From Mobula hypostoma (lineage: Eukaryota): a stretch of 64,000 nt of DNA. The notes beneath the pieces are model-generated. The model saw nothing but the letters and a program-made list of their open reading frames with translations. It had not been told where the DNA came from and made no database searches. The stretch's first letter is position 1, and every line of letters begins with the position of its first letter. A program made the translations under genes and the position numbers. The stretch is from the NCBI RefSeq assembly GCF_963921235.1, contig NC_086108.1, positions 32,118,001 to 32,182,000 of the forward strand, in the 5' to 3' direction. Positions 22,201 to 45,931 of the stretch are shown here, in pieces.

Positions 22201-24734
22201 CAGAAACATTAATTTTTTTTCTAATTTCTTGTGTAGCCGAACTATTAATTTCATTCCTAATTTTTTTAATTTCCTCTAGTGTATCCTGTGCCAAACTCAA
22301 TGTGTTTTTTTTTCTAGTTCCTTCAGCTTATTTTGTAATTCCTCTAATGTTCTATTCCTTATTTTTCTCTTATATGAAGATATCATTATAATATTCCCTC
22401 TTAAGACAACAGCCTTCAGAGTATCCCATAGAAAGAGAGGTGAAACCTCTCCATTATCATTGAATTCTAAGTAAAGACCAATTTCTCTTTTAATTTGTTC
22501 CTTAAAATAGGGATCGTTGAGTAGATTTGAATTTAGTTTCCAAACAGTATTCTTTGGTTGTAGGTCAAAATCAACAGATAAATATATAGGTACATGGTCA
22601 CTTACATCTATCGTCCCAATCCCACAGGTGATTATTTTGTCTCTATCTTTTCCAAATGTTATGAAATAGTCTATTCTTGTACATATGGAATGGGGGGGCA
22701 GAATAATGAGTGTAATCCCTTCTGTCAGGGGAAAGGTCCGTCCATATATCAATTAGACCAACATCTTCAAAAAGAGTGTTAACTTTCTTATGTAAGGACT
22801 TTGTTTCATAAGTTTTTCTATTGGAAGAGTCTAACTTTAGTTGTAATGGTAAATTTAAGTCTCCCCCACATAACAAGAGACCTTCTGTTTCCATTACCAT
22901 AATATTAGTAATTTTTTGGAAGAAACTAATATCACTTTCTGGGGGTGCATATATATTCAATAAACTAACTGGATTTCCATCTATATTCCCCCTTACCAGA
23001 ATATATATCTGCCCTCCTTATCTCCCATTTCGAGTATTTTTTCAAAATTTAGCTTACTTGAAATGAGAATAGCAACTCCTCGTCTATGTCCTGATTTACA
23101 TGAGGAGAAAAACAAATTAGTGAAGCCCATTCTCTTTAATTTTCCATGCTCATTATCACTTAAGTGAGTTTCCTGTAAATATACTACATGGGCTTGTTCT
23201 TTTCTCATTTTTGATAGAACTTTACTGCGCTTGACTGGATTCAACAGCCCATTGACATTAAAAGAAATAAATTTTACTTTGTCCTTAGCCATGTGTATTT
23301 ATCTGTTAGTATATCATTGAAATTTGCAGAATTTAACTTATTCGATCTACTCCCTGAACAAGTAAGAGCAAATAATTTAAAAAAGGTAACGAAGGTGTGG
23401 TTCCAAGGCTGGGGTTTCTAGATGACCCTGGGTTGAGCTAGAAGAAAAGTCTAGCTGTGGGGGATAGCCCCTCCTACCTGTGTGTTGAGGGCTCCCGCTG
23501 CAGTACCTATAAAAGTAAGTAAAAAAAATCGATGTCCATTACACAGAAATGATTTCCCTGAGTATTCCTCCCATGTATATATTCTCATTTAGGTGGGGAA
23601 AAAGGAATGAATAAATGAATTTTTAAAAATTGAGTAAAATCCACATTATAATACGTATTTCTCGAGATAGGTATATCACCGTCTATTTTTGCTTCTGTTT
23701 AGCTTATCAGCACTTTAAAAGTTAGCCAAACCAAGGGACAACTGCTCAGCCAGACTTTCCCTTGGTTTGACCACGCTAATGGACAGTCCTCTGTTGTTCA
23801 TGTCTGTAGTCGCCTCCTCCACTGTCTGGTACAGTTGCATCCCTTCTTGGTAAAATACTCTCAGTTTAGCAGGGTACAAAGTTTGGAATGTAATCTTTTC
23901 TTGCCTTTTCGTTTCGCTTCAGAATATTCCTTCCGTTTCTGTCGGACCACCGGGGGGTAATCATGATCGAAGTATATTAACTTCCCGTTGCAAAAAACCC
24001 TCTTCTTACCCCAGGCCCTTCGTAGGATCTCCGCCTTGCTCTTGAATCAAAGAAATTTAAGTACTATTGAGCGCGGTTTACTTTCTCTGTCTCCGGAGGC
24101 CCGCTGGACGAGCGAATGATGTGCCCTCTGAATTTCAATCTCCATAGACTGGGGAATCTCCAGCACTTCCCGCAGCAGCTTGTCTAGAAAGTCCATCATC
24201 GACAATCCCTCCGCTCCTTCGGGAACATTATAAATTCTGATATTTTTCCATCGCGATCTTCCCTCCTGGTCAAGCAATTTATTTTCCTGTTGATTTAAAA
24301 TTTTTATCGCCTTACTTCGTATCTGTTCCACATTTTGCACGCGATCTTCCATCTTCTCAATTCGAGTCTCTGCCACCGCTATTTTCTGATTGACGTTTGC
24401 GAGCTCTGACTTTATATCATCGAATTGCTGCTTTATATCTTTTTGGACTTCCCTTATCTCTTCCAAAATCCTTATCATATTTGCCGCTTCGCCTGCACGA
24501 GGTCCCGTGTCAGCCTCGCCGCCACGCGCACGTGTAGGAGAGCCATGCGCTGTACCTCTCTCTTCCATAGGCTTCGCAGTGATGCTTTTTTTAAGATCTC
24601 CATTCTTTCTCCTCATTCTTGCCCTCTTATCAATTCAGATATTTTCCAAAGATCTTAACGGGGCAAAGTATGCATTTTTCCGGAGGAGCTGTTGATTTAA
24701 GCTGCCAATCTGAACAATGATGTCACCGGAACCA
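19271..24734 (-). mobile_element. Full-length L1/Tx1-clade LINE (ORF1 ~24616-23700, ORF2 ~23292-19513, both disrupted)
   Basis: ORF1 coiled coil plus EGRSRWKNIRIYNVPEGAE; ORF2 APE (ISFNVNGL, YLQETHL, GGDLN, SDH), RT ([15 protein letters not shown]), C-terminal CWRNC..H..WEC; AATAAA and A-rich tail; 13-bp TSD AAAGCACTTAATT (19258-19270, 24735-24747). Confidence 0.95.
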
Positions 24735-25879
24735 AAAGCACTTAATTCTATCTATGACTTTCTGTGTGTAGTAAGCATTTATGTGCATGATCTTCACTCA
24801 CTGATTGTGAAGTATCCTTGGTACTGCTATTACCGTGCACTTTTACGTTCCCTAAGGAACCAGTGTGATTCTCCTGACTTCATTCTGGTTGAGTGTTAAG
24901 AGATGTACTAGATTATGAGGCAGCAGGTTGTGGTAGCTTGCAGTTCTATTGTTAATGATGAATCACAGAGTACCAAGCTCTGTGTGGCTGTACTGATCAT
25001 TCATTGATACCTTTATTACAGCAGTACCACCATACCAAACATGAAAGATTTTATGCTTATTTTTCATTAATAACAAGATTTCACTTTTTTCCTACCATGC
25101 TAGAATTGAACTGATATCCTCTGACTTTCTACTATCATGTTACCATAATTATGAGTGCTTTGTAGTAAAGTGCAAAACTTGAAACTGGCTGATCTTCTGA
25201 AGTAGGAAGCCAGCTTGACAACTTTTAAATATTAAAGAATTTCACTGTTCTTTAAAATTACTTTTCCCGAAATGTTCAATTCCCCAGATATTCCTTCTTC
25301 CAATCTGATTTCCCTCTCAATCTCTGCACTGCAGTTTCTTCATTTAATTAAATAGCAAGCCCAAGATGTCAGGTCTTCTACTTCTTTGGGTTCCTAGTAG
25401 GTATGTCTATAAGTGTAATGGATATGAACAAAACATGCAGGTCAGAACATCAATCCACATGCAACATCAGTTTGGTGCAAATGATACCTCTTAAACTTGC
25501 ACAGCCAAGCACACATTAAATATTAGAAAGGATCCGATCATAATATCTAAAGGGATCATCAACTACTTTAGGTTAAGAGGCCAATGATTTTTTTTTTGTC
25601 ATTGCTGCTGCTACAAACCCGCAATTTTTTGCTGCATTTCATAATTGTTTCAAAAGTTAAAAGTAGGAGATGGCAGTTATTGAAGGAGGTTTTACTTGCT
25701 TCAAAGTGACAACAGAACCCAGATTCAAGTACATCAGTGGGTTTTCCAAGAATGAGTCCACGCAGAACAGAACAAGCTGTGAAAAACTGAGGTGCAGGAG
25801 ATAGAGAAGAACACTCAGCAGGAGGTTAGTTCAGCTTCGGAACAATTACCCTGTCTGTGCCTTGGTAAAGAGCAAAATG

Positions 25880-26520
25880 TATGAGAACACAGAACAGTAC
25901 AGCAAAGGAAATGCCCATTGGCCCATGATGTCTGTGGCAACCATGATATCAATCAAAACTAGTCGCATCTACCTGTACATGTCCAGTGTCCCTCCATTTG
26001 CTGCTGTTCATGTGCCTGTCTAAATTCCCATTAAATGTTGGCATTGTATCTGCTTCCACCACTTCCTCTGGCAACACATTCCAGATACCAACTGCTCTTG
26101 AGTAAAAAAAACTTGCCTTGCAAATCTCCTTTAAACCTCCTTCCTTTCTCACTTTAAATCTAATATTTGACATTTTCTTCCGGTGTAAAACAAAACTGAC
26201 CACCTATCCTGTCTATGCTTCTCATAACTTACATACTTCAATCAAGTCACCCCTCAGCTAGCAACATTCCTGAGAAAACAAAGTTCTTCTTTAATACTTC
26301 GTCCTGACAAAGGGTCTCGGCCTGAAACGTCGACTGCACCTCTTCCTACAGATGCTGCTTGGCCTGCTGCATTCACCAGCAACTTTGATGTGTGTTGCTT
26401 GAATTTCCAGCATCTGCAGAATTCCTGTTGTTTGCGTCTTCTTTAATACTGACAACTTCTCAAGTGAAGCTCTTTTACATCCTTTCCAAAGCCTCCACAT
26501 CCTTACTATAATGTAGTGAC
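25880..26520 (-). mobile_element. CR1 LINE 3' fragment (hosts the ribozyme-bearing insert at 26299-26436)
   Basis: ORF 25949..26203 (RAVGIWNVLPEEVVEA); CR1-type tail agaacacagaacagtacagc. Confidence 0.75.
26299..26436 (+). mobile_element. Short non-autonomous Penelope-derived element (hammerhead module plus 3' tail)
   Basis: Nearly identical to the 3' end of the PLE at 31972-32105; gtcCTGACAAagggtctcggcctGAAAcgtcgactg; perfect 14-bp TSD TCTTCTTTAATACT (26285-26298, 26437-26450). Confidence 0.88.
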
Positions 26521-26654
26521 CAGATATACATACAGTGCAGCATCAGGTTAGAATAAGGTTCCATTTCTGAAAGTTGCTTATACCTGTACTGTTCATAAAT
26601 CGGAAATGAATGCAAACCCCGTGGGAGAGAAGACGAGAGGACCACAAAAACAGC

Positions 26655-28200
26655 ACCAATCTACCTGCATATTGAAATCCCCCATGACTATTGTAACACT
26701 GCCCTTTTGGCATCCTGATGTAATTTGTAGAACACCTCCTTACTACTGATTGGGGGTCTGTATATAACTCTTATCAGGGTATTTTTACCCTTGTAGTTCC
26801 TTAGCTCTATCCACAACGATTCAACACCTTATGTCACCTTTATGTCACCATGATTTGATTTCATTTGACCCATCAGAGCCACACCACCCCACCTGCCTAC
26901 CTACCTGTCCTTTATATACCATGTGTATCCTTAGACATTAAGCTCCCAGTTATAATCTTCTTTCAGCCATGATTCAGAGATGCTTACAACATCATACATG
27001 CCAATCTGTAACTGTACTACAAGTTCATCTAACTTATTCCATATGCTGTGCCCATTCAAATCCACCCTTTTTGATTTTATCTGCCATTTACATTGCAATT
27101 CATCCTGTTGACTGCAATTTTGTCCTAATAACTGCTTCACCCTGCTAGGTGTTTCATTACACATTGCCTGTGTTTGTAAACAAATGACCTCATCCTCAGA
27201 ACAATCACTTCAATTCCCATCCCTTTGCCAAAGTAGTTTAAATCCTCCCAAACAACTCTAGCAAACATGCCTATGAGAACATTGGACCGCCTCAGGTTCA
27301 GGTGTAACCCATTCCTTTTGTACAGACCGTACCTTCCCCTGAAGAGATCCCAATGATCCATAAATCCGAACCCCTACCCTTGCACCAGTTTCCCACCCCC
27401 ACATTCACCTGCCAAATCATTTTTTTCTTACTCTCATTGGCGCAGCATAGGCAGCAATCCAGAGATTACTATCCTGGGGGTCCTGTTTCTTAGCTTTCTA
27501 CCTAACTTCGTAAAATCTCTCTTCAGGACCTCCTCACCTTGCCTACCTATGTCATTAGTGCCAATGTGCACCCAGACTTCTGGCTGCACACCCTCGCCTT
27601 TGAAAATGCCATGGACCTGATCCAAGACATCCCTGACCTTGGCACAAGTGCGGCAACATATCATTCAGGTGTCTCTATCACAAAATTTCATCTCTAGTCC
27701 TCTGACTAAGGAATCTCCTATCAACACTGCAGTCCTCTTCAACTCTCTGCTCTTCTCAGCCACAGCACCAGACTCAGTGCCAAAGACCCTGTTACTGTGG
27801 CTCCCAACCCCGCCTCCCCCAAGTAGGTTGTCCTTCTCAACAGTACCTTAAGTTGCATACTTATTATTAAGAGGAACAGCCACAGATGTACTCTGCACTA
27901 TCTGTGCACTTCCTTTCCTTCTCCTGACAATCACTCAGTTACCTGACTCCTGCACCCTAGGAGTGACCACCTGCCTGTAGCTCCTACCTATCAACTCCTC
28001 ATTCTCCTGCATGAGTGAAAAATCATCAAGCTGCAGCTCCAGTTCCCTTACATGTTCTCTGAGGAGCCACAGCTCAGTACACCTGGTGCAGATATGTTTA
28101 TCCAGAAGACTAGAGGTCTCCCAGACTTCCCACATCCTATTCACAGAACAAAACACTGCCCCGGAGCCATTCTCACAACACTACTATGCCTTAACAGACG
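26655..28200 (-). mobile_element. CR1 LINE 5' portion: ORF1 (Cys-rich/coiled coil and SGNH esterase) plus start of ORF2
   Basis: HICTRCTEL...VRELELQLDD; VHIGTNDIG...IVISGLLP; GLHLN; then NKLDEL...ISESWL. Confidence 0.82.
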
Positions 28201-28829
28201 AGGAATTAATAAATAAGAAAAAAATAAGAGAAAGTTACGAGATAATTTACCTTGCCCAAGCCTGATCTCGCCTCTGCCAGATGAGCCAAACCAACAGCTT
28301 CTTGCTCATATTCAGCAAGGAGCTGTTGGTAGCAGTGAGTTATTACTACTTATTAATGAAGTACAGAATTAAAATTTCTGCTTGCTTTGTTTCTGGATTC
28401 CATGATACTGACTTGCCGGTAAAGTGCAAATCCAAAATGGAGCCCATTGTCACAACAAGGTCAGCGTATTGAACAGTCAGAACAAACACTAATAAAATGA
28501 CTGAAGAAACCATTTTGACAGCCAGCAATGCCTGCCTCAAGCTTTCTTAAGTATATTGAATGCTTCCTAAGGCTCCTGGCAATCAGGAACATTCAAAAAC
28601 TATGAATATAATCAACTAGTTTGAATAACTTAAAATTTAAAAAGTTAAAGCATGAAGTCACAATCTTCTTAAAAAGTATTTTAAAAGTTTAAAGCAGGCT
28701 CAATTAATTGGCAAAACATACATTAACTCATACTTTTTCTTCAATGGGCTTTCTGTATCTGCAACATATTTAACTTAGCTAAACTTCAGCAAGTAGCTTC
28801 CCCAATACAACTGCTGGGACTTTCAGCAA

Positions 28830-29039
28830 CACACACAAAATGCTAGAGGAACTCAGCAGGCCAAGCAGCATCTGTGGAAAAGAGTATAGTTGATGTTTCG
28901 GGCCAGGCAGGACAGAAAGTCTTGTCCCGAAACGTTGATTGTACTCTTTTCCATAGATGCTGCCTGGCCTGCTGAGTTCCTCCAGCATTTTGTGTGTGTT
29001 GCTTGGATTTCTAGCATCTGCAGATTTTCTCCTGTTTGT
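28830..29039 (+). mobile_element. Short Penelope-derived element with an inverted partial copy at its 5' end
   Basis: Arm ~28826-28902 is the reverse complement of ~28927-29001; flanking direct repeat GACTTTCAGCAA (28818-28829, 29040-29051). Confidence 0.82.
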
Positions 29040-29254
29040 GACTTTCAGCAAGTTTGGTGCTAATCCTGGTTCCCATGAAGGATTAAACTTGAGAGTGACA
29101 GCACTGAGAACAAACCTGGAACATCTGCATTTGTGGGTAGTTACAAACTTGCCGACCCAAGCACAAATGCCAACAGTTCTCATCTTAGAGTCTACCATCG
29201 TTGTTGTACAAAGGAGATCATTATGCTCTACAACTCAGAGAGAAATCTATAAAT

Positions 29255-30520
29255 TTGCATAAGAACTCAAGGAGGAGCAGGCATAAGCCATCTGGCCCCT
29301 AATCCTGCACCATCTATCAGCAAGATCATGGATGATATTCAGCTTGAAACCCATTTTCCTGCACAATGTCCTTATATTTGAATTCCCTGATAACCAGACA
29401 TTTATCAAACTTTCTCTGAATAATGAACTTCCAGAAATTCTAGGGTCAAAAATTATAACAACCCACTGAACAAAGAAATTTCTCTTCATCTCAGTCCTAA
29501 GTGGCCTATTGCTAATTGTGAAACTAATCTACATCTCTAGACTTCTCAGCCAGGGGAACATTCTCATTGTGTTCATCCTGTTAAACCATACAGAAATTAT
29601 TTAAGTTTCATTGGGATTGCATCCATTTTTCTAAGTTCCAGAGAAGACAGACCAAGACAGAAATGTTATTTCATTTCATTCACCAAACACCGAACCAGTC
29701 TGGTGAATTATCACTACACTGCTTCAATGGTAAGAATATCCTTTTTTTTTGATAAGGAGACCAATATTAGAGGTGAGATCTCATGAAGGTTCTGTATAAT
29801 TACAGTTAATTGCATTCCTGCAAAAAAATCACCTTTCTGTAAAAAAATTACACACTATTTACCTTCCTAATTATTTGCTGCATCTGAATATTAGCTTCCA
29901 GAGTCCAGTGAGCAAGTCACCCAGCACCCTTTGAATATCAACTTTTCATGCACCATACTGAACAATCTTACATTTTTTCCCAGAAGATATTCTTTCTGCC
30001 ATGCTCTTACTACTCATTTCCCTTGTCTAAAGTCCCTTAAAGCTTGCTTACAATATTCGTTACTCACAATCTCACCTAATTTATTGTCAATGAACCTGGA
30101 TATTTGACATTTGGTCTCCTTAGCCAAATCATTTATGTACACTGTGACTAGCTGGGGCACAAACACTGATCCCTGTGGCACTCCATTATTTATAGCCTGT
30201 TAACCTGAGCCAGACCCCTTTACTCCAAATCTGCTTTCTGCATGTGCTATTTCTTAAAGTATTTCAATATACTGCCTTCAATTTCCTGTGAAAATCTAAA
30301 TTCATCACATCCATTGAATCCCCCTCATCTACTTCACTAGTGACAAGAAACTGATAGAATAGTCAAAAATGATTATCCTTTCATAAGCTGATGCTGACTT
30401 TGTTCATCTTATTATTCTTTCTGGGTGCTCTATTATTACTTCTTCATTATAAATTCCATCTTTTTTTCCACCTACTGATGCAAGCTAAGAAGTCAGGATT
30501 TCTCTGTTTTCTCTTTTCCT
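29255..30520 (-). mobile_element. Old, highly decayed CR1 LINE
   Basis: MKRNFFVQWVV-like C-terminus, gatccctgtggcactcc (VPQGS on the minus strand), and a CR1 tail near 29260. Boundaries approximate. Confidence 0.65.
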
Positions 30521-30601
30521 TAATACAAGACAATGCAGTATAAAACAATGGATTATTTAATTTGGCTTGTTTCAAACTAGATAAGTTGGCTTAGTTACAG
30601 C

Positions 30602-31440
30602 CACAAAATGCTGGAGGAACTCAGCAGGCCAGCAGCATTCATGGAAAACATTTCGAGTCAAGGCCCTTCATCAAGACTGGAACAAAAGATGAGAAGTTAA
30701 GTCAAGAAGGTGGGGGAAAGGGAGGAAGAAGTACAAGGTGGTAGGTGATAGGTGAACTGGTAAAGGGGAAAGGTGAAGTAAAGGGCTGGAGAAGGAGGAA
30801 TCTGAGAGGAGAGAGTAGAAGGCATGGAAGAAATGGGAGGAGGAGCACATGGTTAAACAGTCAGAAGGCAGCAGAGATCACAGAGGGGAGACAGTGAGAG
30901 AGGGTTTCACTGAACTCCTGAAGGGAAGATATGAACTTCTTCAGGATAGGCATCCCTGGAAGAGACTTCACAATGTAGTAGTAGCACAAAGACGAGAAAA
31001 TCTGCAGATGTTAGAAATTCAAGCAACACACACAAAATGCTGGAGGAATTCAGCAGGCCAGGCAGTATCTATGGAAACGACTAAACAGTCGACTTTTCAG
31101 GCCAGGACCCTTCATCAGGACTGGAACAAAAGATGAGAAGTTAGATCAAGATGATTGGGTAAAGGGAGGGGCATTAGATCAACAAGGTGACAGGTGATAG
31201 CTGAAACTGATAAAGGGGAGGGGTGAGGTAAAGACTGGGAAGTTGATAGGTAAAAGAGATAAATGTCTGGAGAAGGGGGAATCCAATAGGAGAGGGTAGA
31301 AGATCAAGGAAGAAAGGGAAGGGGGAACATAAGGTTGAAGAGTCGGGGGGGCAGCAGAGAACACAGAGGGGAACATTGAGAGAAGGTTTCACTGAACTGC
31401 CATTAAAGGGAAGATTTAAACTTCTTTAGGGTAGCATCCA
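30602..31440 (-). mobile_element. Head-to-tail dimer of a ~444-bp Penelope-derived unit, each with a hammerhead motif
   Basis: Units ~30602-30985 and ~30990-31440 share the same blocks in order: tail, cccttcatca(a/g)gactggaacaaaagatgagaagtta, purine-rich tract, ggtttcactgaact...ggcatcc. Confidence 0.8.
31086..31123 (-). ncRNA. Minimal type-I hammerhead ribozyme motif (one stem-III change)
   Basis: Minus strand cagtc-CTGATGA-agggtcctggcct-GAAA-aGTC-gactg: both core boxes and a perfect 5-bp stem I. Confidence 0.7.
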
Positions 31441-31971
31441 AGTTGTTTAGCACAAGGAAGCTTGCAGACCAGATGGATATTATCAGTTAGCATATCAAAA
31501 GCGGATCAATGAATAGTTGGAAGATTTGTGTACTCATAGAGTTAGCTCCACAACATTAACTGAGAGTACCTGGGAAATGTGTCTCCTAGAAACTTTCAGA
31601 TCACTTGTGTTCAAAGTTATCTGGAAAATTATTGCATGTGTGTGAAGCCACCCAAGTGGCAAAGAAATGGTATAAATGAAGAGGGAATTTCAGGCTTTTT
31701 AGGAATGATTGAGGAACATCAAGAAGCATGACAGAAACACGGGGTGAACTAGAATCTATTCCTCCACTTTCAATAGCTGTAACAGATGTCGAGTCTGTCA
31801 GCAGCTCATGGGTATGTCTTTTTAGCTTACAAGAATTGTATGAGTGTGTTGGAAATCCTTTGTTTTAGAAATGGTTCTAATTTGTAAGTATTTAATAAGA
31901 TAAAAATCCTTTGAGAGCGGGTGTTGTTTGAATTCAACCATTTATCACTAAAAATAAACAAAATAAATGAA

Positions 31972-34480
31972 AACAACAGGAATTCTGCAGATGCTGGAAA
32001 ATCAAGCAACACACATCAAAGTTGCTGGTGAACGCAGCAGGCCAAGCAGCATCTGTAGGAAGAGGTGCAGTCGACGTTTCAGGCTGAGACCCTTCGTCAG
32101 GACTAACTGAAGGAAGAGTGAGTAAGGGATTTGAAAGTTGGAGGGGGAGGGGGAGATCCAAACTGATAGGAGAAGACAGAAGGGGGAGAGATAGAGCCAA
32201 GAGCTGGACAGGTGATAGGCAAAAGGGGATACGAGAGGATCATGGGACAGGAGGTCCGGGAAGAAAGACGGGGGGGGGGGAACCCAGAGGATGGGCAAGA
32301 GGTATATTCAAAGGGACAGAGGGAGAAAAAGGAGAGTGAGAGAAAGAATGTGTGCATAAAAATGAGTAACAGATGGGGTACGAGGGGGAGGTGGGGCCTT
32401 AGCGGAAGTTAGAGAAGTCGATGTTCATGCCATCAGGTTGGAGGCTACCCAGACGGAATATAAGGTGTTGTTCCTCCAACCTGAGTGTGGCTTCATCTTT
32501 ACAGTAGAGGAGGCCGTGGATGGACATGTCAGAATGGGAATGGGATGTGGAATTAAAATGTGTGGCCACTGGGAGATCCTGCTTTCTCTGGCGGACAGAG
32601 CGTAGATGTTCAGCAAAGCGGTCTCCCAGTCTGCGTCGGGTCTCGCCAATATATAAAAGGCCACATCGGGAGCACCGGACGCAGTATATCACCCCAGTCG
32701 ACTCACAGGTGAAGTGTTGCCTCACCTGGAAGGACTGTTTGGGGCCCTGAATGGTGGTAAGGGAGGAAGTGTAAGGGCATGTGTAGCACTTGTTCCGCTT
32801 ACACGGGTAAGTGCCAGGAGGGAGATCAGTGGGGAGGGATGGGGGGGACGAATGGACAAGGGAGTTGTATAGGGAGCGATCCCTGCGGAATGCAGGGGGG
32901 GGGGAGGGAAAGATGTGCTTAGTGGTGGGATCCCGTTGGAGGTGGCGGAAGTTACGGAGAATAATATGTTGGACCCGGAGGCTGGTGGGGTGGTAGGTGA
33001 GGACCAGGGGAACCCTATTCCTAGTGGGGTGGCGGGAGGATGGAGTGAGAGCAGATGTATGTGAAATGGGGGAGATGCGTTTAAGAGCAGAGTTGATAGT
33101 GGAGGAAGGGAAGCCCCTTTCTTTAAAAAAGGAAGACATCTCCCTCGTCCTAGAATGAAAAGCCTCATCCTGAGAGCAGATGCGGCGGAGACGGAGGAAT
33201 TGCGAGAAGGGGATGGCGTTTTTGCAAGAGACAGGGTGAGAAGAGGAATAGTCCAGATAGCTGTGAGAGTCAGTAGGCTTATAGTAGACATCAGTGGATA
33301 AGTTGTCTCCAGAGACAGAGACAGAAAGATCTAGAAAGGGGAGGGAGGTGTCGGAAATGGACCAGGTAAACTTGAGGGCAGGGTGAAAGTTGGAGGCAAA
33401 GTTAATAAAGTCAACGAGCTCTGCATGCGTGCAGGAAGCAGCGCCAATGCAGTCATCGATGTAGCGAAGGAAAAGTGGGGGACAGATACCAGAATAGGCA
33501 CAGAACATAGATTGTTCCACAAACCCAACAAAAAGGCAGGCATAGCTGGGACCCATACGGGTGCCCATAGCTACACCTTTAGTTTGGAGGAAATGGGAGG
33601 AGCCAAAGGAGAAATTATTAAGAGTAGGGACTAATTCCGCTAGACAGAGCAGAGTGGTGGTAGAGGGGAACTGATGAGGTCTGGAATCCAAAAAGAAGCG
33701 TAGAGCTTTAAGACCTTCCTGATGGGGGATGGAAGTATATAAGGACTGGACGTCCATGGTGAAAATAAAGCGGTGGGGGCCAGGGAACTTAAAATCATCG
33801 AAAAGTTTAAGAGCGTGAGAAGTGTCACGAACATAGGTCGGAAGGGATTGAACAAGGGGTGATAAAACAGTGTCGAGGTATGCAGAAATGAGTTCGGTGG
33901 GGCAGGAGCAAGCTGAGACAATAGGTCAGCCAGGACAGGCAGGTTTGTGGATCTTGGGTAGGAGGTAGAAACGGGAAGTGCGGGGTGTGGGAACTATAAG
34001 GTTGGTAGCAGTGGATGGGAGATCCCCTGAGCGGATAAAGTCGGTGATGGTGTGGGAGACAATGGCCTGGTGCTCCTTAGTGGGGTCACAATCGAGGGGT
34101 AAATAAGAGGAGGTATCCGCGAGTTGTCGCTGTGCCTCGGCAAGGTAGAGGTCAGTACGCCAGACTACAACAGCATCCCCCTTATCGGCGGGTTTAATAA
34201 TAAGGTTAGGATTAGTGCGGAGGGAGTGGAGAGCAGAGCGTTCCGAAGGAGTGAGGTTGGAATGGGGACAAGGTGCGGTGAAGTCGAGACGGTTGATGTC
34301 CCGTCGGCAATTAGCGATAAAGAGATCCAGAGCAGGCAGAAGACCAGAGCGGGGTGTCCATGAAGAAGAGGAGGGTTGAAGACGGGAGAAGGGGTCATCG
34401 GTGGGGGTGGAAGAGTCCTTGCCGAAGAAGTAGGCTCGGAGACGGAGACGGCGGAAGAAAAGTTCCGTATCATGGCGAAT
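31972..34480 (-). mobile_element. Young, 5'-truncated Penelope-like element (RT + GIY-YIG endonuclease)
   Basis: IKPADKG, YLLPKIHK, MDVQSLYTSI, GVAMG, RYIDD, FLDL, VIYCVRCSRCGLLYIGET. ORFs 33926..34654 and 32399..33757 are in the same frame, separated by one TGA. 11-bp TSD AAATAAATGAA (31961-31971, 34481-34491). Confidence 0.95.
32068..32105 (-). ncRNA. Minimal type-I hammerhead ribozyme in the PLE 3' region
   Basis: Minus strand tagtc-CTGACGA-agggtctcagcct-GAAA-cGTC-gactg: CUGANGA and GAAA boxes, stem II, palindromic ACGU stem III, GUC cleavage triplet, 5-bp stem I. Confidence 0.82.
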
Positions 34481-35341
34481 AAATAAATGAACTACTTTGT
34501 TAGCTGGAAGTACCTTCTCCTTGGCAGGTAGGAGTGACCCACCACTCCAATAGCGGGTAATGGCAGCTGAGCACGCTGTGGAGCATAAACAGGGGAATGA
34601 ACTAGACTTTGAAGATTGGGTAGTTACAGTATAACCTCCCTTTAGTAACGACACCTGTGGCTATTTATATTGGATAGGACTTATGGTCTTCATTGGTGTT
34701 TAGAATTTTGCAGTCAGCAAACCATCACAACAGGGATGATTTGACATAAGAATATTGATGAATTAATTTAGTGCTGCTATGGAGCAAAAAAAGATTCATT
34801 ATATTCCAGTAGTGCAAAAAAGCATCACTTTCACAGGTTTGGGGACAGAACCACTCTGCTTCCCTTCACTAAGCTGTTGCCTCCCATTGTTGTGTCCTAA
34901 TGAAGAGTATTGACCTGAAATATTAACATTATTGCCCTCCAGAGATACTGCCTGACTTGCTGAGTTACTCCAGCATTTGTGCGTTGCTCAAAAATTTCAA
35001 CTATCTACAGTTTCGCACGTGTGTGTCTGTGAGTGTGTTGCCTCCTTTATTGCTGATTCTAAATATAGCGGTTTAAAGTAATGTTGGAGCATTACTGTGG
35101 CAGTATATTGAATGTCTTGAATGTAAAGCATGAGTTCTTATCAAAGTACAGAGTAAATTTTTTTATCAAAAGATATATATAACTAATTATCTTGAGATTA
35201 TTTTTGCAGGCATTCACAGTAAAATGAGATACAACAGAATCAATGAAAAACACACAAACACTGACAAAGGAACCAATGTATAAAAGACCAAATGTGCAAA
35301 TTAAAAAAGCAATATATAATACTGAGATTACGACCCGTATA

Positions 35342-35884
35342 TAGTACTGTGTAAAAGTCTTAGGCACACATATATAGCTAGGGTGCCCAAGACTTCTGCA
35401 CAGTACTGTATTTGTCAACGTGGAGTGGACAGCAAGTTTGTGAATCTTGCAAGAGCAAAGGATGTTGGGAATGGTGAGGGCAGAGCACCACGGGAGAGGT
35501 GTGAAACAGATGGTAGAGAAGGAATGCCAGGGATAGGGAGGGGTGGATTGGGTGCAGACACACCCAGCCCTGAGACACCAGGCAAGGTCATTTGATTCCT
35601 AACAATTGATCATTACAGAGTGTCTCTCTGATGTTTCCTGCTCCCTCTCCTCTCCCTTCCTCTTTTCCCAACCATGATTCCCCTCTCCCTGCCCCTTTCC
35701 CACTCTCAGTCCACGATAGAGAACCATTTCAGAATCAGGTTTATCATCACTCACATATGTTATGAAATTTGTTTTTTTTTGTGGCAGCAGTACAGCGCAA
35801 TACATAAAATTACTACAATACTGTGCAAATGTTTTAGTTACCCTCACTATATATATGTGCCTAAAACTTTTGCATAATACTGTA
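35342..35884. mobile_element. Two ~65-bp palindromic Tc1/mariner-like mini-MITEs (35342-35410, 35814-35884) bracketing ~400 bp
   Basis: Each unit is self-complementary (tactgtg.aaaagtcttaggcac...gtgcc.aagactt.tgcacagta) with TA ends; the two units are in opposite orientation. Confidence 0.65.
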
Positions 35885-35962
35885 GTCCTGAAAAGTGAGG
35901 CCATAGGCTGGTTCACGAATGACTTTGGGTGGAATAGGAAATTGTGAACTGCACTATGGCTA

Positions 35963-38900
35963 GAGGGCGACCTTCACTAATCCGACTACCTGCAATCCGG
36001 TGCGCTTGCGCCGGTCATGCATGCAGCCTGTTACAGCCGTTCCGATCAGTATTCTTACTTTTTTCTTCTTACTTTTTAACTTACGCTATTTTTTGTATTT
36101 TTTTTTCATGGTAACACGTCGAAGCTGCACACTCTCTAACATGCTGGTAGAGAGAGTTTTATTTGGGTTTTTAACGCTAGAAATAGTTACATTCCGACAC
36201 GTCTCATTAGCGGGACAGAAGCATGGTTGCATTGTTTATTTCAGGGACCAGCTGATTGAGCTTATGCCGGCCGGTTTAGCAAGCAGAGCAGCGGACACCC
36301 CTGCTGAAATCTGGAGGAAAACACACAGAGGATGCAGAGGGGGATCACAAAGGCAAGGAAAGAGGATCGGGTCGAGACAACAGAGACTTATGGAGAAGAG
36401 GAGTTCGGTGGGTAATAAAATGGACGAGTTCACAGTGCTAGCCAGGCGTCAGAGAACATTTCGGGAGTGCAGTGTTATGTGTTTCACTGGAACGGGGCTA
36501 CACAAAGACATACCCAATCAAAGCTTTTCCATGGACGGCTTCCAGACCGTTCGGACTGACCGGACGTGCACTGAGAGCGGTAAGCGTAAAGGAGTTGGGT
36601 GCTTACTGTCCTGGTTAACAACGGATGGTGCAATCCGGGTCATATTACGATCGAGGAACGTGTTTGTAGACCGGATATTGAACTTTTTGCTGTTGGACTT
36701 CGGCCATATTCCACCGAGATACAACACTAGGCGGCACGGAAGGTTGTTCCTGCCTGTGGCCATCGAACTTTGCAGCTCCTCCCGTGGAGGGTCAGACACC
36801 CTGTGCCAATAGGCTGGTCCTGGACTTATTTTCCGTCTGGCATAGTTTGCATTTTGTTGTTTGATTGTTTGTGGTTTTTGTATTGCTATATTTATGCTCT
36901 ATTCTTGGTTGGTGCGGCTGTAACGAAACCCAATTTCCCTCAGGATCAATAAAGTATATCTATCTACCTATCGATAATCCGGCACAGATTTCAAATTTTC
37001 CACGCACTGTGATTTCAAATTTCCTGGGCCACCATACCAATCATTGCTTTGGTTGCGCTAGATCTGTTCACGTGTTGGCGCGCTCTTGTAAGCACAGACA
37101 GGCGATTCCTGCTTGTTTTCCTGCATTTATTAATATCATTGGCTCTTTTTTAGCCCCAATTATGACCCCACTGAGTAAAGGAAATGCACCTCGTGCTGTG
37201 AAGCGAAAACACCGCACATTATCCATTAAAGATAAGGTTGAACACTTGAAAAAACTGGACAGTGGTGTATCGGTGAAAACATTGGCTCTTCCACAGTGTA
37301 CGATATAAAGAAACAAAGAAAAACTGCTACATTTTTTTGCTGATAGTGGCTCACAGAAACAGATGTGCGTAAGAAAAACAATGAAAGACGGAAGTTGTTC
37401 AGAACTAGATAAAGTGCTGATTTTAATCTTCGTGTAAGTGAAGGTGTTGAACTATCTGGAGATATGGTGAAGGAACAAGCAGAAGTGTTTCATGAAGAAC
37501 TAGGACTAAATTATGACTGTGACTGGCTTCATCAGTTTAAGCAGTGTCATGGTTTACAGTTTTGTGCAGTGTGTGGTGAGAAGCGTTCAGCAGACAAGGA
37601 AGCAGCAGCAGAGTTTGTTGACGAGTTCGCCAAGTTAGTCTCCGATGAAAAGTTAAGCCCCGAGCAGGTGTACAATGCTGATGAGACTGCTTTGCATTGG
37701 AGATGTACACCAAGAAGAACACTAACAACAGCAGATGCAGAATCACCAACAGGGTATAAGGCATCCAGAGATCATGTGACTTTGCTAGGCTGCTCTAATG
37801 CTGCAGGAACCCACAGATGTAAGTTACTGGTCATTGGCAAAAGATTACGTCCCAAGGCCTTCAAAGGTATGACGAAATTTCCTGTAATTTACCGTGCTAA
37901 CAAAAACATATGGATTCTAGCATCACACTAGAATGGTTTGAAAATTATTTCGTTCCCGAAGCACAAGCTCACTGTGACTCTGTTGGTCTGCACCACAACT
38001 GTAAGATAATGCTTATTTTAGACAACTGTTCAGCACACCCAAAAGCAGAACTCCTGGTAAAAAAACAATATTTTTGTTATCTTCCTGCCACCTAACTATA
38101 CATCATTAATTCAACCTCTGGACAATGGCATACTACGTTCTCTCAAGTCGAAGTATCATTCCCTGTTTATGAGGCGCCTTTTGAGTGCAGTTAATGCTGG
38201 AAGACTGGTAAAGGAACTTATAAAGGATTTTAATATGAAAGAGATGATTTACTGTGCTGCTAATGCTTGGTGGTCTGTACAGCCATCCACACTGAAGAAT
38301 GGTTGGTATAAATTATGGCCAGGTTCAATGTTTGAGTCTGCACCTGGTGAAGACACTGGAAATGACTTTACAGGCTTTAGAGTTTCTAAGGAAAAACAGA
38401 TGATACGTGAACAGCTTTCTTTTGCTCAAGAGCTAACTAATCCTGCTGCCAAGAATCTTGCATCAAGGTTCAATGATGGCAATGTTGAAGAATGGATGAA
38501 TATAGATGAGGATGAGCCTACTGTTCATCATTATACTGACTCAGAAAATGTACGGATGGTTGTACATCCAGAGAAGGAAGATATTGGAGGAGAAAGCAGT
38601 GATGAATATGAGGAAGTTGTAGCAGAGAGACTTTCTATAGACAGGCTAATTAAGTTGACAGGTGAATTGCTGCAAGGATTAGAGCAACGATGTTTTATAA
38701 CTGAGCAAGAAATAATGAGTGTTTATAAGCTGCAGGATAAGCTAATCAGAGAGCGATTAAAATATATGGAACAGCTTACCTTGGAAGATATGTTCAAAAA
38801 AATTGCTAGAAAAAGTGCAACAGGGGAGCTGACACTTCAAAATCCAGTGCCATCAACTTCTGCTCACTCAGATGTGCTGCCACCAACATCAACAGTTTTT

Positions 38901-39323
38901 GAAGAAACTGTTGTGCCAGTTTCAGCACCAGATCCTGATGCTTCACTCACTTTTCAAGATGAAGTTGTTGATGATCCTGACAACCTCAAACTTGCAGACA
39001 TGTAACTTTGCCTGAAAGTATGTTAAATGTCTCACTTTAGAAGCGGAAGTGCTCAACTGTTCTGTATAAGTTAAACTCCTGTACATTTACCTGTACCTTT
39101 TATTTTATCTGTGCCTGTACAGTATATTACTTTAAAATTTCACTTGCTACTCATTTAATATTTCTGTTTCATTATTATCTAACCTGTACTGATTTACATG
39201 ATATTTTAAAGGTACAATGAGGTGGTTAGCTATTGCTTAATTTGATCCTTCTGTAATTCGGCATTTTCATTAATCTGAAACTCCTCAGGTCCCAGTGGTG
39301 CCGGATTAGTGAAGGTCGACCTG
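35963..39323 (+). mobile_element. Tigger/pogo (jerky-like) DNA transposon with decayed transposase (~37162-39005)
   Basis: TIRs TA|GAGGGCGACCTTCACTAATCCG and CGGATTAGTGAAGGTCGACCTG|TA; CENP-B-like N-terminus KRKHRTLSIKDKVE; DDD motifs VYNADET, LILDNCSAHP, IQPLDNGI. Confidence 0.93.
36001..36975 (+). mobile_element. Internally deleted Rex/Babar-L2-type LINE derivative nested in the Tigger 5' end
   Basis: APE N-terminus (NKMDEF...RECSVMCFT) joined directly to the ORF C-terminus (RYNTRRHGRLFLPVAIEL); AATAAA and (TATC)n tail; 7-bp TSD AATCCGG (35994-36000, 36976-36982). Confidence 0.8.
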
Positions 39324-40061
39324 TACCTGAGAATGTATCTTTTAAGTCCTGAATATTCTTAAGGTTCACTTAATCCTCTTGCAATATTGTATCCAGGTAC
39401 TCAGAACTAGATCACTGGAATTCACCTTGACAGCTGTTATTTACAGTCTCTTTTCCCCTAATGAAGGGTGAAGACATTTTTGCTAATCTCTGTTCTAAAT
39501 GTCAAATGCTTATATATCTGAGATTGTGAACATGGTTTTGACTTCCATATCCTATACCGGAGGCAGTGAAAATTGGTGTTATATATAGATATAATAGCAC
39601 CAAATTGATTGGAATAAGTTCCTTAAGATTTAGCAAGATAGCATAAAAACTTCAAACCTGACCAGATTAATCTGATTTCCTCAGATTTGTTCTTAAACTG
39701 CAGAAACAAACTTCCAATCCTTGAATTCTTGCTTGATATTGAATTTGTATTACAAAATTAGTCCTTGATAAGTAACATAAGCAATAGCAATAACTTGGAA
39801 ATTATCAATGACATCAGTACTAAACTCAGAAAGCTGAGGGTTAAAGAAAAAATAAATCAGATTTTGCATTCTTAAATGTTGTCCATTGACCAAACACCCT
39901 ACTTTAAAATACAGAAACTCTAGCAAATGGACTTGAATGACACCAAGTGATCTCAGCATTACTTTCTGCAATTCATTTTGTAAATCTCACTATCCCTCCA
40001 TCTTCACATTTTCCTTTCAGATCCTCTTTAAAATTCATGTGTTTGACCAAGTTTTTAATTA

Positions 40062-40835
40062 GAAACACAAAAAAGTCTGCAGATGCTAGAAGTACAAAGC
40101 AACACACACAAAATGCTGGAGGAACTCAACAGGTCAGACAGCATTTATGGAGATGAATAGATAGTCAATGTTTTTCCTTCAGGACTGAGAAGGGAGAAAA
40201 TGCCAGAATAAGAAAAGGTAGGGAAGGGGAAAGAGGCTAGCTGGAAGGTGATAGGTGAAGTCAAGAGGATGGGAAAGATCCTGAAGAATCACTGGGGACC
40301 CAAGTCACCCCAACCATAATCTATTCCAGCTGCTACCATCCAAAAAACAGTACCGCAGCATAAAAGCCAGGACAGCTTCTTCCACCAGGCCAACAGACTG
40401 ATTAACTCACGCTGATTTGAGTGTACTATGTTACATTGACTATTCTATTTATTACAAATTATTAATTACTATGATTGCACACTGCATATTTAGACAGAGA
40501 CATAATGCAGAGATTTTTACTCCTCATATATGTAAAGGACATAAGAAATAAAGTCAATTCAATTCAAGGGCTGGAGAAGGAGGAATTTGATAGGTGGGGA
40601 AAGCAGACCATAGGAGACAGGGAAGGGGGAGACTTGGGGAAGTAATAGGCAGGTGAGAAGAAGTAAAAGGTCAGAATGGGGAATAAATGAAGGGGAGGGG
40701 GATTTGTTTCACCAAAAGGAGAAATTGATGTTCATACCATCAGGTTGGATGGTATCTAGACGTAATACAAGGTGTTGTTCCTCCACCCTGAAGGTAGCCT
40801 CATCTGGCACAAATGGCGGCCATGGACCGACAAAT
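40062..40835 (-). mobile_element. Old Penelope 3' fragment interrupted by a plus-strand LINE 3' end (~40281-40566)
   Basis: Tail and GIY-YIG C-terminal sequence (ttgatgttcataccatcaggttgg...gttgttcctcc) homologous to 31972-32520; the insert ends in aataaagtcaattcaattcaa. Confidence 0.75.
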
Positions 40836-41889
40836 CAAAATTGACTCCCCCTTTTCCTCGTACAGCAATACAACATGAAAATAGGTTCTTCATCTAAATC
40901 CATGCTGACCATCAGGAATCTATTTACAATAATAACTTTAATCTCTCCGTATTTGTTTCAATATCTCCTGTCACCTGCAACCCACCCCTCAGACTCACTC
41001 ATCTACACACAAAAGGGCATTTACACCACGGCTAATTAATCTACCAACCCTACATGGTGCACGGATGCAGGGGAAGTCTGGAGTAAGAAACAGAGAGAAA
41101 GTGCAAACTTTACACCGATTGAATCACTGGATCTCTGTAGAACTACTAGCTGCCATGCTGCTGTTGTCCTGATGTATAGTTATGTTTTTGTGAAACACTG
41201 CAACATTATTTTAATGTTGAAGATGCAGTATAAATGCAAACTACAATGTTGTGCATAATTTAATCATAGTATACTGTGGTGGTACAGCAGCGAGTTAAAC
41301 AATGGGATCTAAATTGAATAAAGCTATCTGAATTAGAAAGAAAACTAGCTTCAGTAGCAACAAACTAACAGAAAGTTCATGAAGGAAATTTGCACTTCTT
41401 ACTTAGTCAAGCTTGTACATAACTTTAGACCTATCACAATGCAGTTGACTCCTAAATCCCCACTGATAAAGCTATGCAAGCCATTCAAAGTACAAAGTTT
41501 AAAGTAAGTTTCTTATGAAAGTACACATCATCACATGCAACCCTGCGATTCACTGCCTTGTGAACATACTCAATAAATCCAAAGGATAATAACCTTAGCA
41601 GAACCAATGAAAAACTGCATCAACTTAGGCATTGAACTGGTGTGCAAAGGACAACAAGTTTTCCAAATACAAAAAGAAACAAGTCATAATAATAGCAATA
41701 AGAAGAAGAGGAAATAAGTAATAAATATCAAGAACATGAGATGAAGAGTCCTTGAAAGTTAATACAATAGGTTGTGGGAACATTTCAGTGATGGGCAAGT
41801 GAAGTTATCACCTTTGGTTCAAGAGCCTGATGGTTGAGCGGTAATAACTGTGGTGGTGTGATTTCCGAGGCTCCTGTATAAAACCATTA

Positions 41890-44800: not shown

Positions 44801-45240
44801 CATCTTCAGTCCAGTATTCACCCTTTTCGATTTTGTCTGCCTTTTACATTGCAACTCATCCTGTTGACTGCAATTTTGCCCTATCACCAGCCTCTCCTCA
44901 GTACACATTGCCTGTTTGTAAACCAGCTACCTCATCTTCAGCACTATCGTCTGCGCTTCTGACAATATTTCTCGCATAGAAATATACGCAGCTCAGGACA
45001 CTAATCACACCATGCCTTTTGATTCATAACTCTGAGTCTTACCAACATTTGCCTCCACAACTTCTCCATTAACTGTTCTGCTGCTCTGGTTCCCATCACC
45101 GTGCAACTCTAGTTTAAACACCACCGTGCAGCACAAGCAAACCTTCACGCTAGGATATTAGTCCCCCTGAAGTTCAAGTGCAAACCATCCCTTCTGCACA
45201 GGTCCCACCTTCCCTGGAACAGAGACCAATGATACAAAAA
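41890..45240 (-). mobile_element. Decayed CR1 LINE (end of ORF1 and most of ORF2)
   Basis: FLNACSIWNKVDE, MGDFS...SDHNMI, QHGFLKGKSCLTN, LDFQKDFDKAPH. Confidence 0.87.
42736..42922. mobile_element. 187-bp hAT MITE with ~60-bp TIRs, nested in CR1
   Basis: TIRs 57/60 identical (CAGG.GTGGCCA.CCTTTTACATTCCATGCG...); perfect 8-bp TSD ATCTAAAT (42728-42735, 42923-42930). Confidence 0.93.
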
Positions 45241-45779
45241 TCTTGGCCTGGGTGGTGGGGGTGCCTGATGACAGATGCTGCTTTCACGTGACAATGTTTC
45301 ATGTAGGTGTACTCAATGGTGAGAACAGCAATGAATGGACTGGGCTGATTCCGTTACTTTTTGTAGTGCAAAACTCGGTTTCACTTAACTGCATCACTGC
45401 AGTGGTTCAAAATGAAAGCTCACCACTGTCTTCTTAAGAGCATTTAGAAATTAGGAATAAATGCTGGCCCTGTCAGCTATATATCGTTATATTCTGTAAC
45501 TTCAAAATATTAAATTAATTCAAAAGAAAACAGAGTCCGAAGAATGCGGGTGTAATTTCATCTTTAAGTGAGGAGCGCATGCATCATGTGGTAATGTGAT
45601 GACACATGCAATTAATGTAGTTTTACATATAACCTGTAATTAATTATTTAAAAGAATATTTAATCAAACTATACATACAAGAGTACTCAAATATTATTGA
45701 AATATCAAATACACACTTGCTTATCAACCTACCATCAAACTCCAACTCAACATGAAATGCATCTCAACTATATACACAG

Positions 45780-45931
45780 TGTACTATACACTAATCCGGC
45801 ACCATTGGGACCTGAGGAGTGCCGGATTAGTGAAAATGCCGAATTACAGAAGGGTCACATTAAGCATAATCAGTGCTGGATTATCAAAGGAACCAGATTA
45901 CAGTTAGTGGGATTAGAGAAGGCTGACTGTA
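45780..45931 (-). mobile_element. ~150-bp MITE made of the two ends of the Tigger family at 35963-39323
   Basis: ctaatccggcaccattgggacctgaggagt...gaaaatgccgaattacagaagg is the reverse complement of 39245-39310; its other end matches the Tigger left end. Confidence 0.8.

What the first reader, a model, noticed from the sequence alone, without database searches (positions are those of the whole stretch)
32068..32105. Intact minimal type-I hammerhead ribozyme at the 3' end of a young Penelope element
Seen (minus strand): UAGUC-CUGACGA-AGGGUCUCAGCCU-GAAA-CGUC/GACUG. Stem I is UAGUC:GACUG, both catalytic boxes are exact, stem II is short, stem III is reduced to palindromic ACGU, and the canonical GUC site predicts cleavage between 32073 and 32072. 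Established: PLE terminal repeats carry such minimal hammerheads. Inference: this is the active-state sequence of the module found all over the window, linking a protein-coding driver (RT/GIY-YIG) with ribozyme-processed non-coding passengers.
Basis: partly seen in the sequence, partly recalled or inferred. Interest (0 to 1): 0.75.

Follow-up and report, generated by a model that had tools for sequence, protein, structure and literature searches.

The report
Penelope-element minimal hammerhead in ray intron
The small self-cutting RNA motif is really there, but it is an ordinary copy of a motif that Penelope-like jumping genes are known to carry; it sits in a dead, shortened copy inside an intron of a ray's dynamin gene and is unlikely to cut there.

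Summary
The motif at 32105-32068 (minus strand) is real. A covariance model built only from invertebrate relatives scores it 34.9 bits (E about 2.5e-7), and a strict descriptor hits 1 of 100 shuffled windows. It is the known minimal hammerhead (min-HHR) of Penelope-like elements, here in a Neptune-type element of a ray (closest protein: Mobula, 96%). The host copy is 2,509 bp, 5'-truncated, flanked by an 11-bp duplication and has an in-frame stop, so it drives nothing. 'Active-state sequence' is not supported. In the conserved register stem II opens with G10.1·U11.1, whereas 15 of 15 cores in related elements have G-C. The loop base at 32085 is a minority letter in the family. The insertion ends 101 nt downstream of the predicted cut, so its template was not cut at this site, as in the Anolis Poseidon element. 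The other 14 module copies in the window are decayed 3' ends of the same kind of element; none starts at the cut site. The copy lies sense in a 39-kb intron of a dynamin-3-like gene, without an intact partner for dimer cleavage. Cleavage was not tested. New member of a known kind; low interest.

The parts
32068..32105 (-). Minimal type-I hammerhead motif (min-HHR)
32101..32105 (-). Stem I, 5' arm (pairs with 32068-32072)
   Evidence: stem I covaries in relatives
32094..32100 (-). Core box C3-A9 (CUGACGA)
32093..32093 (-). Extra unpaired A between positions 9 and 10.1
   Evidence: A in 15 of 15 related cores; feature named in PMC4209133
32081..32092 (-). Stem-loop II; opening pair G10.1·U11.1 (32092/32081) instead of G-C; loop base 32085 is a minority letter
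32073..32080 (-). GAAA box, ACGU palindrome (helix III only by pairing with a second copy) and C17; predicted cut between 32073 and 32072
   Evidence: dimer model from PMC4209133
31972..32072 (-). 101-nt segment 3' of the predicted cut, copied into the genome; carries a predicted hairpin; probable internal RT start region. The last 33-35 nt look like the optional PLE tail
   Evidence: (table 7); analogy to PMC11167929
32106..32398 (-). Pyrimidine-rich 3' untranslated part of the element
32399..34480 (-). 5'-truncated PLE reading frame: RT (YIDD at aa 340), CX4CX2C linker (aa 560-568), GIY-YIG endonuclease (aa 596-670)
33926..33928 (-). In-frame TGA in the RT region; not shared by most family depth (79% in X1, 54% in X5 read another letter)
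34481..34491 (-). Target-site duplication, 5' copy (TTCATTTATTT)
31961..31971 (-). Target-site duplication, 3' copy
31086..31123 (-). Nearest same-strand hammerhead copy, 982 nt downstream, older subfamily, palindrome broken (AAGU)
26299..26436 (+). Second young copy: 138-bp insertion with a 14-bp TSD, starting at stem I; G8 mutated; also U at 11.1
12363..51626 (-). 39,264-nt GT-AG intron of a dynamin-3-like gene that holds the element in sense orientation (flanking exons 51770-51627 and 12362-12273)

Best explanation
This is the inherited min-HHR of the 3' pseudo-LTR of a Neptune-type Penelope-like retrotransposon that is extremely abundant in a mobulid ray. SHOWN: motif, position 3' of the RT-EN frame, TSD, 5' truncation, stop codon, sense position in a dynamin-3-like intron, conserved architecture in relatives. 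INFERRED: the source element was transcribed from a tandem array; its protein nicked a T-rich target and began reverse transcription inside the RNA about 100 nt downstream of the hammerhead, read through the uncut ribozyme and stopped after 2.5 kb, leaving one pLTR. In the family the motif is a slow, conditional ribozyme that needs a second copy (ACGU:ACGU helix III) and probably the element's own protein, and acts on tandem transcripts. At this locus it is carried passively in the host pre-mRNA, lacks an intact partner, tends to fold its core onto the palindrome, has a weakened first stem II pair, and is most likely inert.
For: Motif and chance. Element anatomy. Clade architecture: 11 of 31 evaluable related loci carry the same core 104-138 nt after the frame's end on the sense strand, 0 of 31 on the antisense strand of the same 600 nt; homology between their copies runs on 17-119 nt past the cut, mostly 50-75 or about 118; stems I and II covary (34 cells changed on both sides against 11.0 shuffled, 0 of 500). 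Template not cut here: 101 nt after the cut site are inside the TSD, and the second young copy shows the same. Precedent: in Anolis Poseidon RT starts 85-92 nt 3' of the cut, core mutants still insert, and cleavage needs the protein (PMC11167929); a single min-HHR showed no cleavage and dimers little (PMC4209133); 8 of 9 Xenopus dimers did not cleave. Abundance and 3' bias: 314,811 contigs of one DNA run lie on the stretch at >=90%, summed depth 7.4 million at the motif, 0.73 million near the 5' end, 20-1,800 in the flanks (not a copy number). Inertness here: monomer folds G5-G8 onto C15.2-C17; stem I probability falls to 0.02-0.06 with 150-300 nt of upstream context; partner at 31118 has a broken palindrome; 9 sense against 6 antisense copies in the gene, p=0.61.
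Against: No cleavage was measured, and no raw RNA reads were available to look for ends at the cut site. The core is complete, and G·U still pairs. The folding argument does not single out this copy: the computed gap between active dimer and best alternative is 13.7 kcal/mol here against a median of 14.6 in 14 relatives, so such gaps say little about activity. 20 of 31 related loci had no intact core by my pattern (decay or variant cores, not examined one by one). Whether U11.1 is private decay or a subfamily allele is open: position 32081 is not among the 40 of 165 rows shown, and the other young copy shares U. Neptune assignment rests on the linker motif, not on a tree.
Confidence: 0.85

Rival explanations
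1. One reading: this is the active form of the ribozyme, and cleavage releases short non-coding units (retrozyme-like passengers) that the PLE protein then mobilises.
For: Only complete core among 15 copies. Vertebrate non-LTR retrozymes derive from PLE pLTRs, and one chondrichthyan genome holds them (10.64898/2026.07.22.740005). An old head-to-tail pair lies at 30597-31434, and one contig of run X5 joins 32104 back to 31994 (table 5c). The 138-bp copy at 26299 starts at stem I.
Against: No window copy starts or ends at the cut site (0 of 14 others); copies run past it; depth rises steadily towards the 3' end, as for 5'-truncated insertions; three copies sit behind PLE coding remnants; this copy departs from the family at 32085 and from the clade at 11.1.
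Confidence: 0.07
2. The motif is mainly a structural or vestigial part of the RNA signal that the PLE protein binds to start reverse transcription; cleavage no longer matters in this ray subfamily, which spread with a weakened G10.1·U11.1 pair.
For: Both young copies and 7 of the 12 older or younger copies readable as C or T have U11.1. Every row shown reaches about 68% in some run, so the absence of 32081 hints that C is not dominant there (inferred from the ranking). Anolis core mutants still insert; Naiad PLEs thrive without canonical HHRs (PMC8557442).
Against: Position 11.1 is the C of a CpG, so independent decay to T is expected; 5 copies keep C, two of them with the opposite-strand decay at G12. 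Core and stems are conserved across distant animals, which points to selection on catalysis at least in the clade.
Confidence: 0.2
3. The sense intronic copy cuts dynamin-3 pre-mRNA during transcription (alone, in trans with other copies, or helped by PLE protein) and so affects host expression.
For: Sense orientation inside a GT-AG intron between exons 96-100% identical to a Mobula dynamin; complete core; an intronic ribozyme affecting its host gene is reported for CPEB3 (PMC10274809, search listing only).
Against: No intact partner in cis; upstream context disfavours the fold; no strand bias among 15 copies; the insertion is recent and has collected at least 31 differences from the family majority, one of them inside the motif, so no sign of conservation.
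Confidence: 0.04
4. Chance look-alike with no relation to hammerheads.
For: Rfam gives no hammerhead hit; isolated fold energy is unremarkable (z -1.27).
Against: Independent model E about 2.5e-7; 1 of 100 shuffles; same core at the same place in related elements with covarying stems.
Confidence: 0.01

Closest known systems
Minimal hammerheads (min-HHR) in the pLTRs of metazoan PLEs, including Xena, Poseidon and Neptune of fishes (Cervera and De la Pena 2014, PMC4209133)
   Same: Type I topology, complete core, 4-5 bp helix I, extra base between 9 and 10.1, palindromic 15.2-16.2, position in the pLTR, many solitary copies from truncated elements.
   Different: G10.1·U11.1 instead of the highly conserved G-C; helix II is 4 bp (7-8 bp in Schistosoma); host is a ray. 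No shark or skate row in the one supplement file I could search.
Poseidon of Anolis carolinensis (Frangieh et al. 2024, PMC11167929)
   Same: Insertion ends lie roughly 70-100 nt 3' of the hammerhead cut site; two end positions about 33-35 nt apart (tail); AT-rich target; template uncut at the ribozyme.
   Different: Different clade (Poseidon has no Zn-finger linker); in Anolis the ORF starts inside the ribozyme, which could not be tested here because the 5' end is missing.
Neptune-clade PLEs (Arkhipova 2006, recalled; Craig et al. 2021, PMC8557442)
   Same: RT, CX2-5CXXC linker, C-terminal GIY-YIG with CCHH residues; 5' truncation; inverted 5'-truncated neighbours among older copies.
   Different: This copy has a clear 11-bp TSD in T-rich DNA, no microsatellite target, and is coding-dead.
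Non-LTR retrozymes (Cervera and De la Pena 2020, PMC7229834; Li et al. 2026, 10.64898/2026.07.22.740005)
   Same: Type I hammerhead, PLE pLTR origin proposed.
   Different: Retrozymes are tandem non-coding repeats, in the tested cases with canonical hammerheads giving circular RNAs; this is a single minimal motif on a coding remnant.

Membership tests
Metazoan PLE min-HHR | Core boxes CUGANGA and GAAA with NUH site | tested here: met
Metazoan PLE min-HHR | Type I topology with short helix I (4-5 bp) | tested here: met
   5 bp; covariation in relatives
Metazoan PLE min-HHR | Extra nucleotide between 9 and 10.1 | tested here: met
   A32093; same in 15 of 15 related cores; register probability 0.98 against 0.02 for the A-U register in the isolated motif
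Metazoan PLE min-HHR | Highly conserved G10.1-C11.1 pair | tested here: not met
   G·U in this copy; G-C in 14 of 14 aligned relatives and C in 5 other window copies. The family ancestrally meets it; this copy is a deviant. The paper lists it as a recurring feature outside its search descriptor.
Metazoan PLE min-HHR | Palindromic 15.2-16.2, no helix III in the monomer | tested here: met
   ACGU
Metazoan PLE min-HHR | Located in the pLTR of a PLE | tested here: met
   299 nt after the stop codon; in relatives also upstream of the frame (L012, L013, L019)
Metazoan PLE min-HHR | Site-specific self-cleavage as dimer or with protein | not testable with these tools
   no bench test; no raw RNA reads listed
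Penelope-like element, EN+ | One frame with RT followed by GIY-YIG endonuclease | tested here: met
   Pfam RVT_1 E 9.6e-5 and GIY-YIG E 6.2e-4, both under the curated cut-offs; 916 homologs at E<=1e-20; motifs
Neptune clade | CX2-5CXXC linker between RT and EN, CCHH in EN | tested here: met
   CKRNKCYTC at aa 560-568; CxxC, H, H at 600-642. Nematis shares the linker.
Neptune clade | RT groups with reference Neptune elements in a tree | not tested
   no labelled reference PLE sequences were available
Active (autonomous) PLE copy | Full-length open frame with an upstream pLTR | tested here: not met
   5'-truncated at 34480, in-frame TGA, no second pLTR inside the TSD
Non-LTR retrozyme | At least two consecutive tandem units with complete hammerheads, no coding sequence | tested here: not met
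   single motif on a coding remnant; the neighbouring old pair has damaged motifs
Rfam hammerhead families | Score at or above gathering threshold | tested here: not met

The most novel reading that the evidence does not exclude
A ray Neptune subfamily amplified to very high copy number while carrying a fixed, weakened hammerhead (G10.1·U11.1, against invariant G-C in distant relatives). The weakening would be what lets the host tolerate sense copies in introns, leaving a ribozyme that cuts only when the element's own protein binds. Ray pre-mRNAs such as dynamin-3 would then be cut conditionally when the element is expressed, and the genome would be a large natural experiment on what PLE hammerheads are for.
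Probability: 0.06. Interest if true: 0.6.

Novelty: new member of a known kind. Interest (0 to 1): 0.15.

Why it matters
The function of PLE hammerheads is still unsettled (PMC8557442 calls it unclear; PMC11167929 finds it dispensable for insertion in vitro). This copy does not settle it, but it adds one clean genomic record, TSD to TSD, that a Neptune-type insertion was copied from RNA uncut at the ribozyme and ends about 100 nt beyond it, as shown biochemically for a Poseidon element. The ray family as a whole is a good dataset for counting insertion ends against the cut site and for asking whether the youngest copies keep G10.1-C11.1. The single locus is ordinary.

Tried and rejected
Rfam scans found no hammerhead. 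No whole genome is held, so copy number and the family's base at 11.1 could not be counted. No RNA holder was listed on record as RNA and all runs were contigs: nothing on expression or RNA ends. No joint for an empty insertion site was among the rows shown (15 shown, 1,438 hidden), so the age against the second species is open. No loose-end row at the cut site was among the 24 shown (5,779 hidden): inconclusive. DNA pattern scans for ray copies found 0 in viral, metagenome and genome contigs; a 19-base pattern gave 6 viral-contig hits that match the window only over 19-32 nt around the pattern and were dropped as chance. A protein search with the frame that reads through the motif, meant to show the base at 11.1, found none among 11 candidates. 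The dimer energy came from an invalid structure and was replaced. The count of homologs with the linker (103 of 103) is not used because the pattern also fits the endonuclease cysteines. The A10.1-U11.1 register was considered and is disfavoured. Dimer energetics do not separate this copy from relatives. Lunse et al. 2017 is not held. A sequence look-up and a 'near' look-up in earlier findings were blank.

Full report
1. Observation. Rfam does not find it (0 hits at gathering score in 64 kb; two unrelated weak hits locally) and the isolated fold is unremarkable (z -1.27). Two other tests show it is not chance. A strict descriptor, written after seeing the motif, hits only this site in the window and 1 of 100 dinucleotide shuffles. 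A covariance model built from 14 motifs of related invertebrate elements, with no window sequence, ranks it first (34.9 bits, E about 2.5e-7 on a rough calibration), followed by copies at 26297-26338 and 31125-31084.

2. The host element. An 11-bp duplication (TTCATTTATTT, 34491-34481 and 31971-31961) bounds a 2,509-bp insertion. It carries a frame of 693 codons with one in-frame TGA at codon 185 and no frameshift: RT (YIDD), a CX4CX2C linker and a GIY-YIG domain (both Pfam hits are below the curated cut-offs). The frame is cut off at its 5' end, where full-length homologs have roughly 100-200 more residues. The closest of 916 homologs is from Mobula hypostoma (96%), then Hypanus and sharks, then invertebrates near 50%. 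The linker marks the Neptune/Nematis type (PMC8557442, passages); I did not build a tree. The motif lies 299 nt after the stop codon and the insertion ends 101 nt after the predicted cut.

3. Abundance and age. nhmmer finds 15 copies of the 3' module in the window, one per 4.3 kb. Laying four public runs (all contigs, no raw reads) at >=90% identity placed 314,811 and 279,678 contigs from two DNA runs of two organisms. Summed depth in X1 is 7.4 million at the motif, 0.73 million near the 5' end and 20-1,800 in the flank bins (not a copy number). This is the profile of a very large family of 5'-truncated insertions. Of 37 rows shown inside the element (40 of 165 rows were shown in all), this copy differs from the X1 majority at 31, so it is at least 1.2% diverged. 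The stop codon is among them (79% of X1 depth and 54% of X5 depth read another letter). The copy is young in relative terms, and dead.

4. Is it the active-state sequence? Cervera and De la Pena (PMC4209133; I read parts 1-2 of 4 and searched one of two supplement files) list as recurring min-HHR features an extra base between positions 9 and 10.1, a highly conserved G10.1-C11.1 pair and a palindrome at 15.2-16.2. In 80 related loci from host DNA in metagenomes, all 15 sense-strand cores had A at 9b, G at 10.1 and C at 11.1, none of which my pattern required (several loci belong to the same family, so perhaps ten independent cases). Stems I and II covary in this register (34 cells changed on both sides against 11.0 in shuffles, 0 of 500; slid controls 2-7; G-C in 14 of 14). 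In that register the window copy opens stem II with G·U. At loop position 32085, 73%, 69%, 92% and 86% of depth in the four runs reads another letter. So this is the best-preserved copy in the window (the only one of 15 with both boxes and the palindrome complete) but not the family's reference state. Whether U11.1 is decay of a CpG or a subfamily allele stays open. Of the 14 other copies 7 have T, 5 have C (two with the opposite-strand change at G12), one is misaligned and one lacks the site. The second young copy shares T, and 32081 is absent from the rows shown, all of which reach about 68% in some run, which hints that C is not dominant among close copies. That a non-G-C pair here slows hammerheads is my recall; I saw only passages calling the pair conserved.

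5. What the geometry says about mechanism. [quoted passage not shown] They do not. This copy has 101 nt beyond it inside the TSD, and the 138-bp copy at 26299-26436 (14-bp TSD) has the same. In relatives, 11 of 31 evaluable loci carry the core 104-138 nt after the frame's end (0 of 31 antisense), and homology between copies continues 17-119 nt past the cut, mostly 50-75 or about 118. In the two runs guessed to be RNA, 23 and 14 contigs leave the element at 32005 and 32007 into mixed, T-rich (element strand) sequence, 33-35 nt before the full end (table 7), which fits the optional 30-40-bp PLE tail; this is modest evidence. Frangieh et al. (PMC11167929, parts 1-2 of 4 read) show for Anolis Poseidon that RT starts at two internal sites 111-118 nt into the ORF while the hammerhead cuts at +26, that core mutants insert normally, that cleavage needs the PLE protein, and that no RNA-seq ends were seen at the cut. 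The simplest reading is the same here (inferred): internal priming about 100 nt downstream, on RNA uncut at this ribozyme or on a circular or multimeric RNA. None of the 14 other copies starts at the cut site, and three lie behind PLE coding remnants, so the 'ribozyme-processed passengers' look like truncated insertions.

6. Context. Six exons of a dynamin-3-like gene lie on the minus strand (96-100% identical to a Mobula birostris protein). The element is sense in the 39,264-nt GT-AG intron 51626-12363, so the motif is part of the pre-mRNA whenever the gene is transcribed. Cleavage there is unlikely. A single min-HHR gave no detectable cleavage and dimers little, and 8 of 9 Xenopus dimers did not cleave (10.64898/2026.07.22.740005, parts 1-3 of 5 read, supplements closed). 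The nearest same-strand copy, 982 nt downstream, has AAGU for ACGU. The monomer pairs its core onto the palindrome, and with 150-300 nt of upstream sequence stem I probability drops to 0.02-0.06. Module copies show no strand bias (9 sense, 6 antisense, p=0.61; small n). Against over-reading the folding: the computed gap to the active dimer, 13.7 kcal/mol, matches the median of 14.6 in 14 relatives.

7. Comparison and novelty. It works like, and is a member of, the metazoan PLE min-HHR class, with one recurring feature (G10.1-C11.1) not met in this copy. It is not a retrozyme and not an active element. min-HHRs in fish Neptune elements were reported in 2014, and retrozymes in one chondrichthyan in 2026. 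A search for hammerhead + Penelope + elasmobranch found 0 papers, and a mobulid genome preprint has no occurrence of 'Penelope' or 'ribozyme' in its main text (10.64898/2026.10.27.761883, passages), so the ray family may be undescribed in this library. Supplements I could not see (file 1 of PMC4209133, those of both preprints) and Lunse et al. 2017 (not held; known to me from the review PMC6765202, passages) may list shark or ray examples. PMC7229834, PMC2837043 and PMC544870 were seen as passages, PMC10274809 as a search listing only. Earlier notes of this scan reach the same verdict for other copies in this genome; they are leads, not support.

8. Verdict. Observation confirmed; interpretation partly supported. 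New member of a known kind, interest 0.15. Most novel reading not excluded: a subfamily-fixed weakened, protein-dependent ribozyme that conditionally cuts host pre-mRNAs (probability 0.06).

Noticed in passing
window 62567-11148 (-): Six exons of a dynamin-3-like (dnm3a) gene: 62567-62421, 59388-59254, 57645-57577, 51770-51627, 12362-12273, 11216-11148; the central intron is 39,264 nt.
   Followed up: yes
window 26299-26436 (+): 138-bp young insertion with a 14-bp TSD that begins at the 5' arm of hammerhead stem I; may reflect RT stalling at the structure, one case only.
   Followed up: partly
window 28806-29035, 54308-54487, 56863-57050: Three head-to-head inverted pairs of the module whose junctions fall in or beside the hammerhead; fits the inverted 5'-truncated arrangement known for PLEs.
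   Followed up: no
window 30597-31434 (-): Old head-to-tail pair of PLE 3' ends, units about 430-485 bp apart, both hammerheads damaged; retrozyme-like in layout.
   Followed up: partly
window 52189-54230 (+): Old PLE remnant whose 3' UTR is interrupted by about 1 kb of LINE-like sequence (about 53012-54035; RTE-like by my reading).
   Followed up: no
run X5, joint 32104 to 31994 (table 5c): One contig joins the start of stem I back to near the 3' end, as a head-to-tail repeat of a 110-nt unit would.
   Followed up: no
window 32068-32105 and L001-L069 motifs: In monomer folds the core (G5-G8) often pairs with C15.2-H17 of the palindrome, in this copy and in many relatives; could be a built-in off state that a partner or protein relieves.
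   Followed up: partly
L071:2885-2917 (+): A related element carries a different hammerhead, without the extra A and with a longer palindromic helix III, about 410 nt after the frame's end.
   Followed up: no
window 15112-15624, 19776-23298, 37413-39002, 43034-44468, 47194-48168: Other transposon remnants: Tc1/Sleeping Beauty-like transposase, LINE with endonuclease and RT, DDE_1 transposase, further RT pieces.
   Followed up: no
proteins P0003, P0005: NCBI ray proteins named 'divergent protein kinase domain 1C isoform X2' and 'chitinase domain-containing protein 1 isoform X1' are almost wholly PLE sequence, probably annotation artefacts.
   Followed up: no
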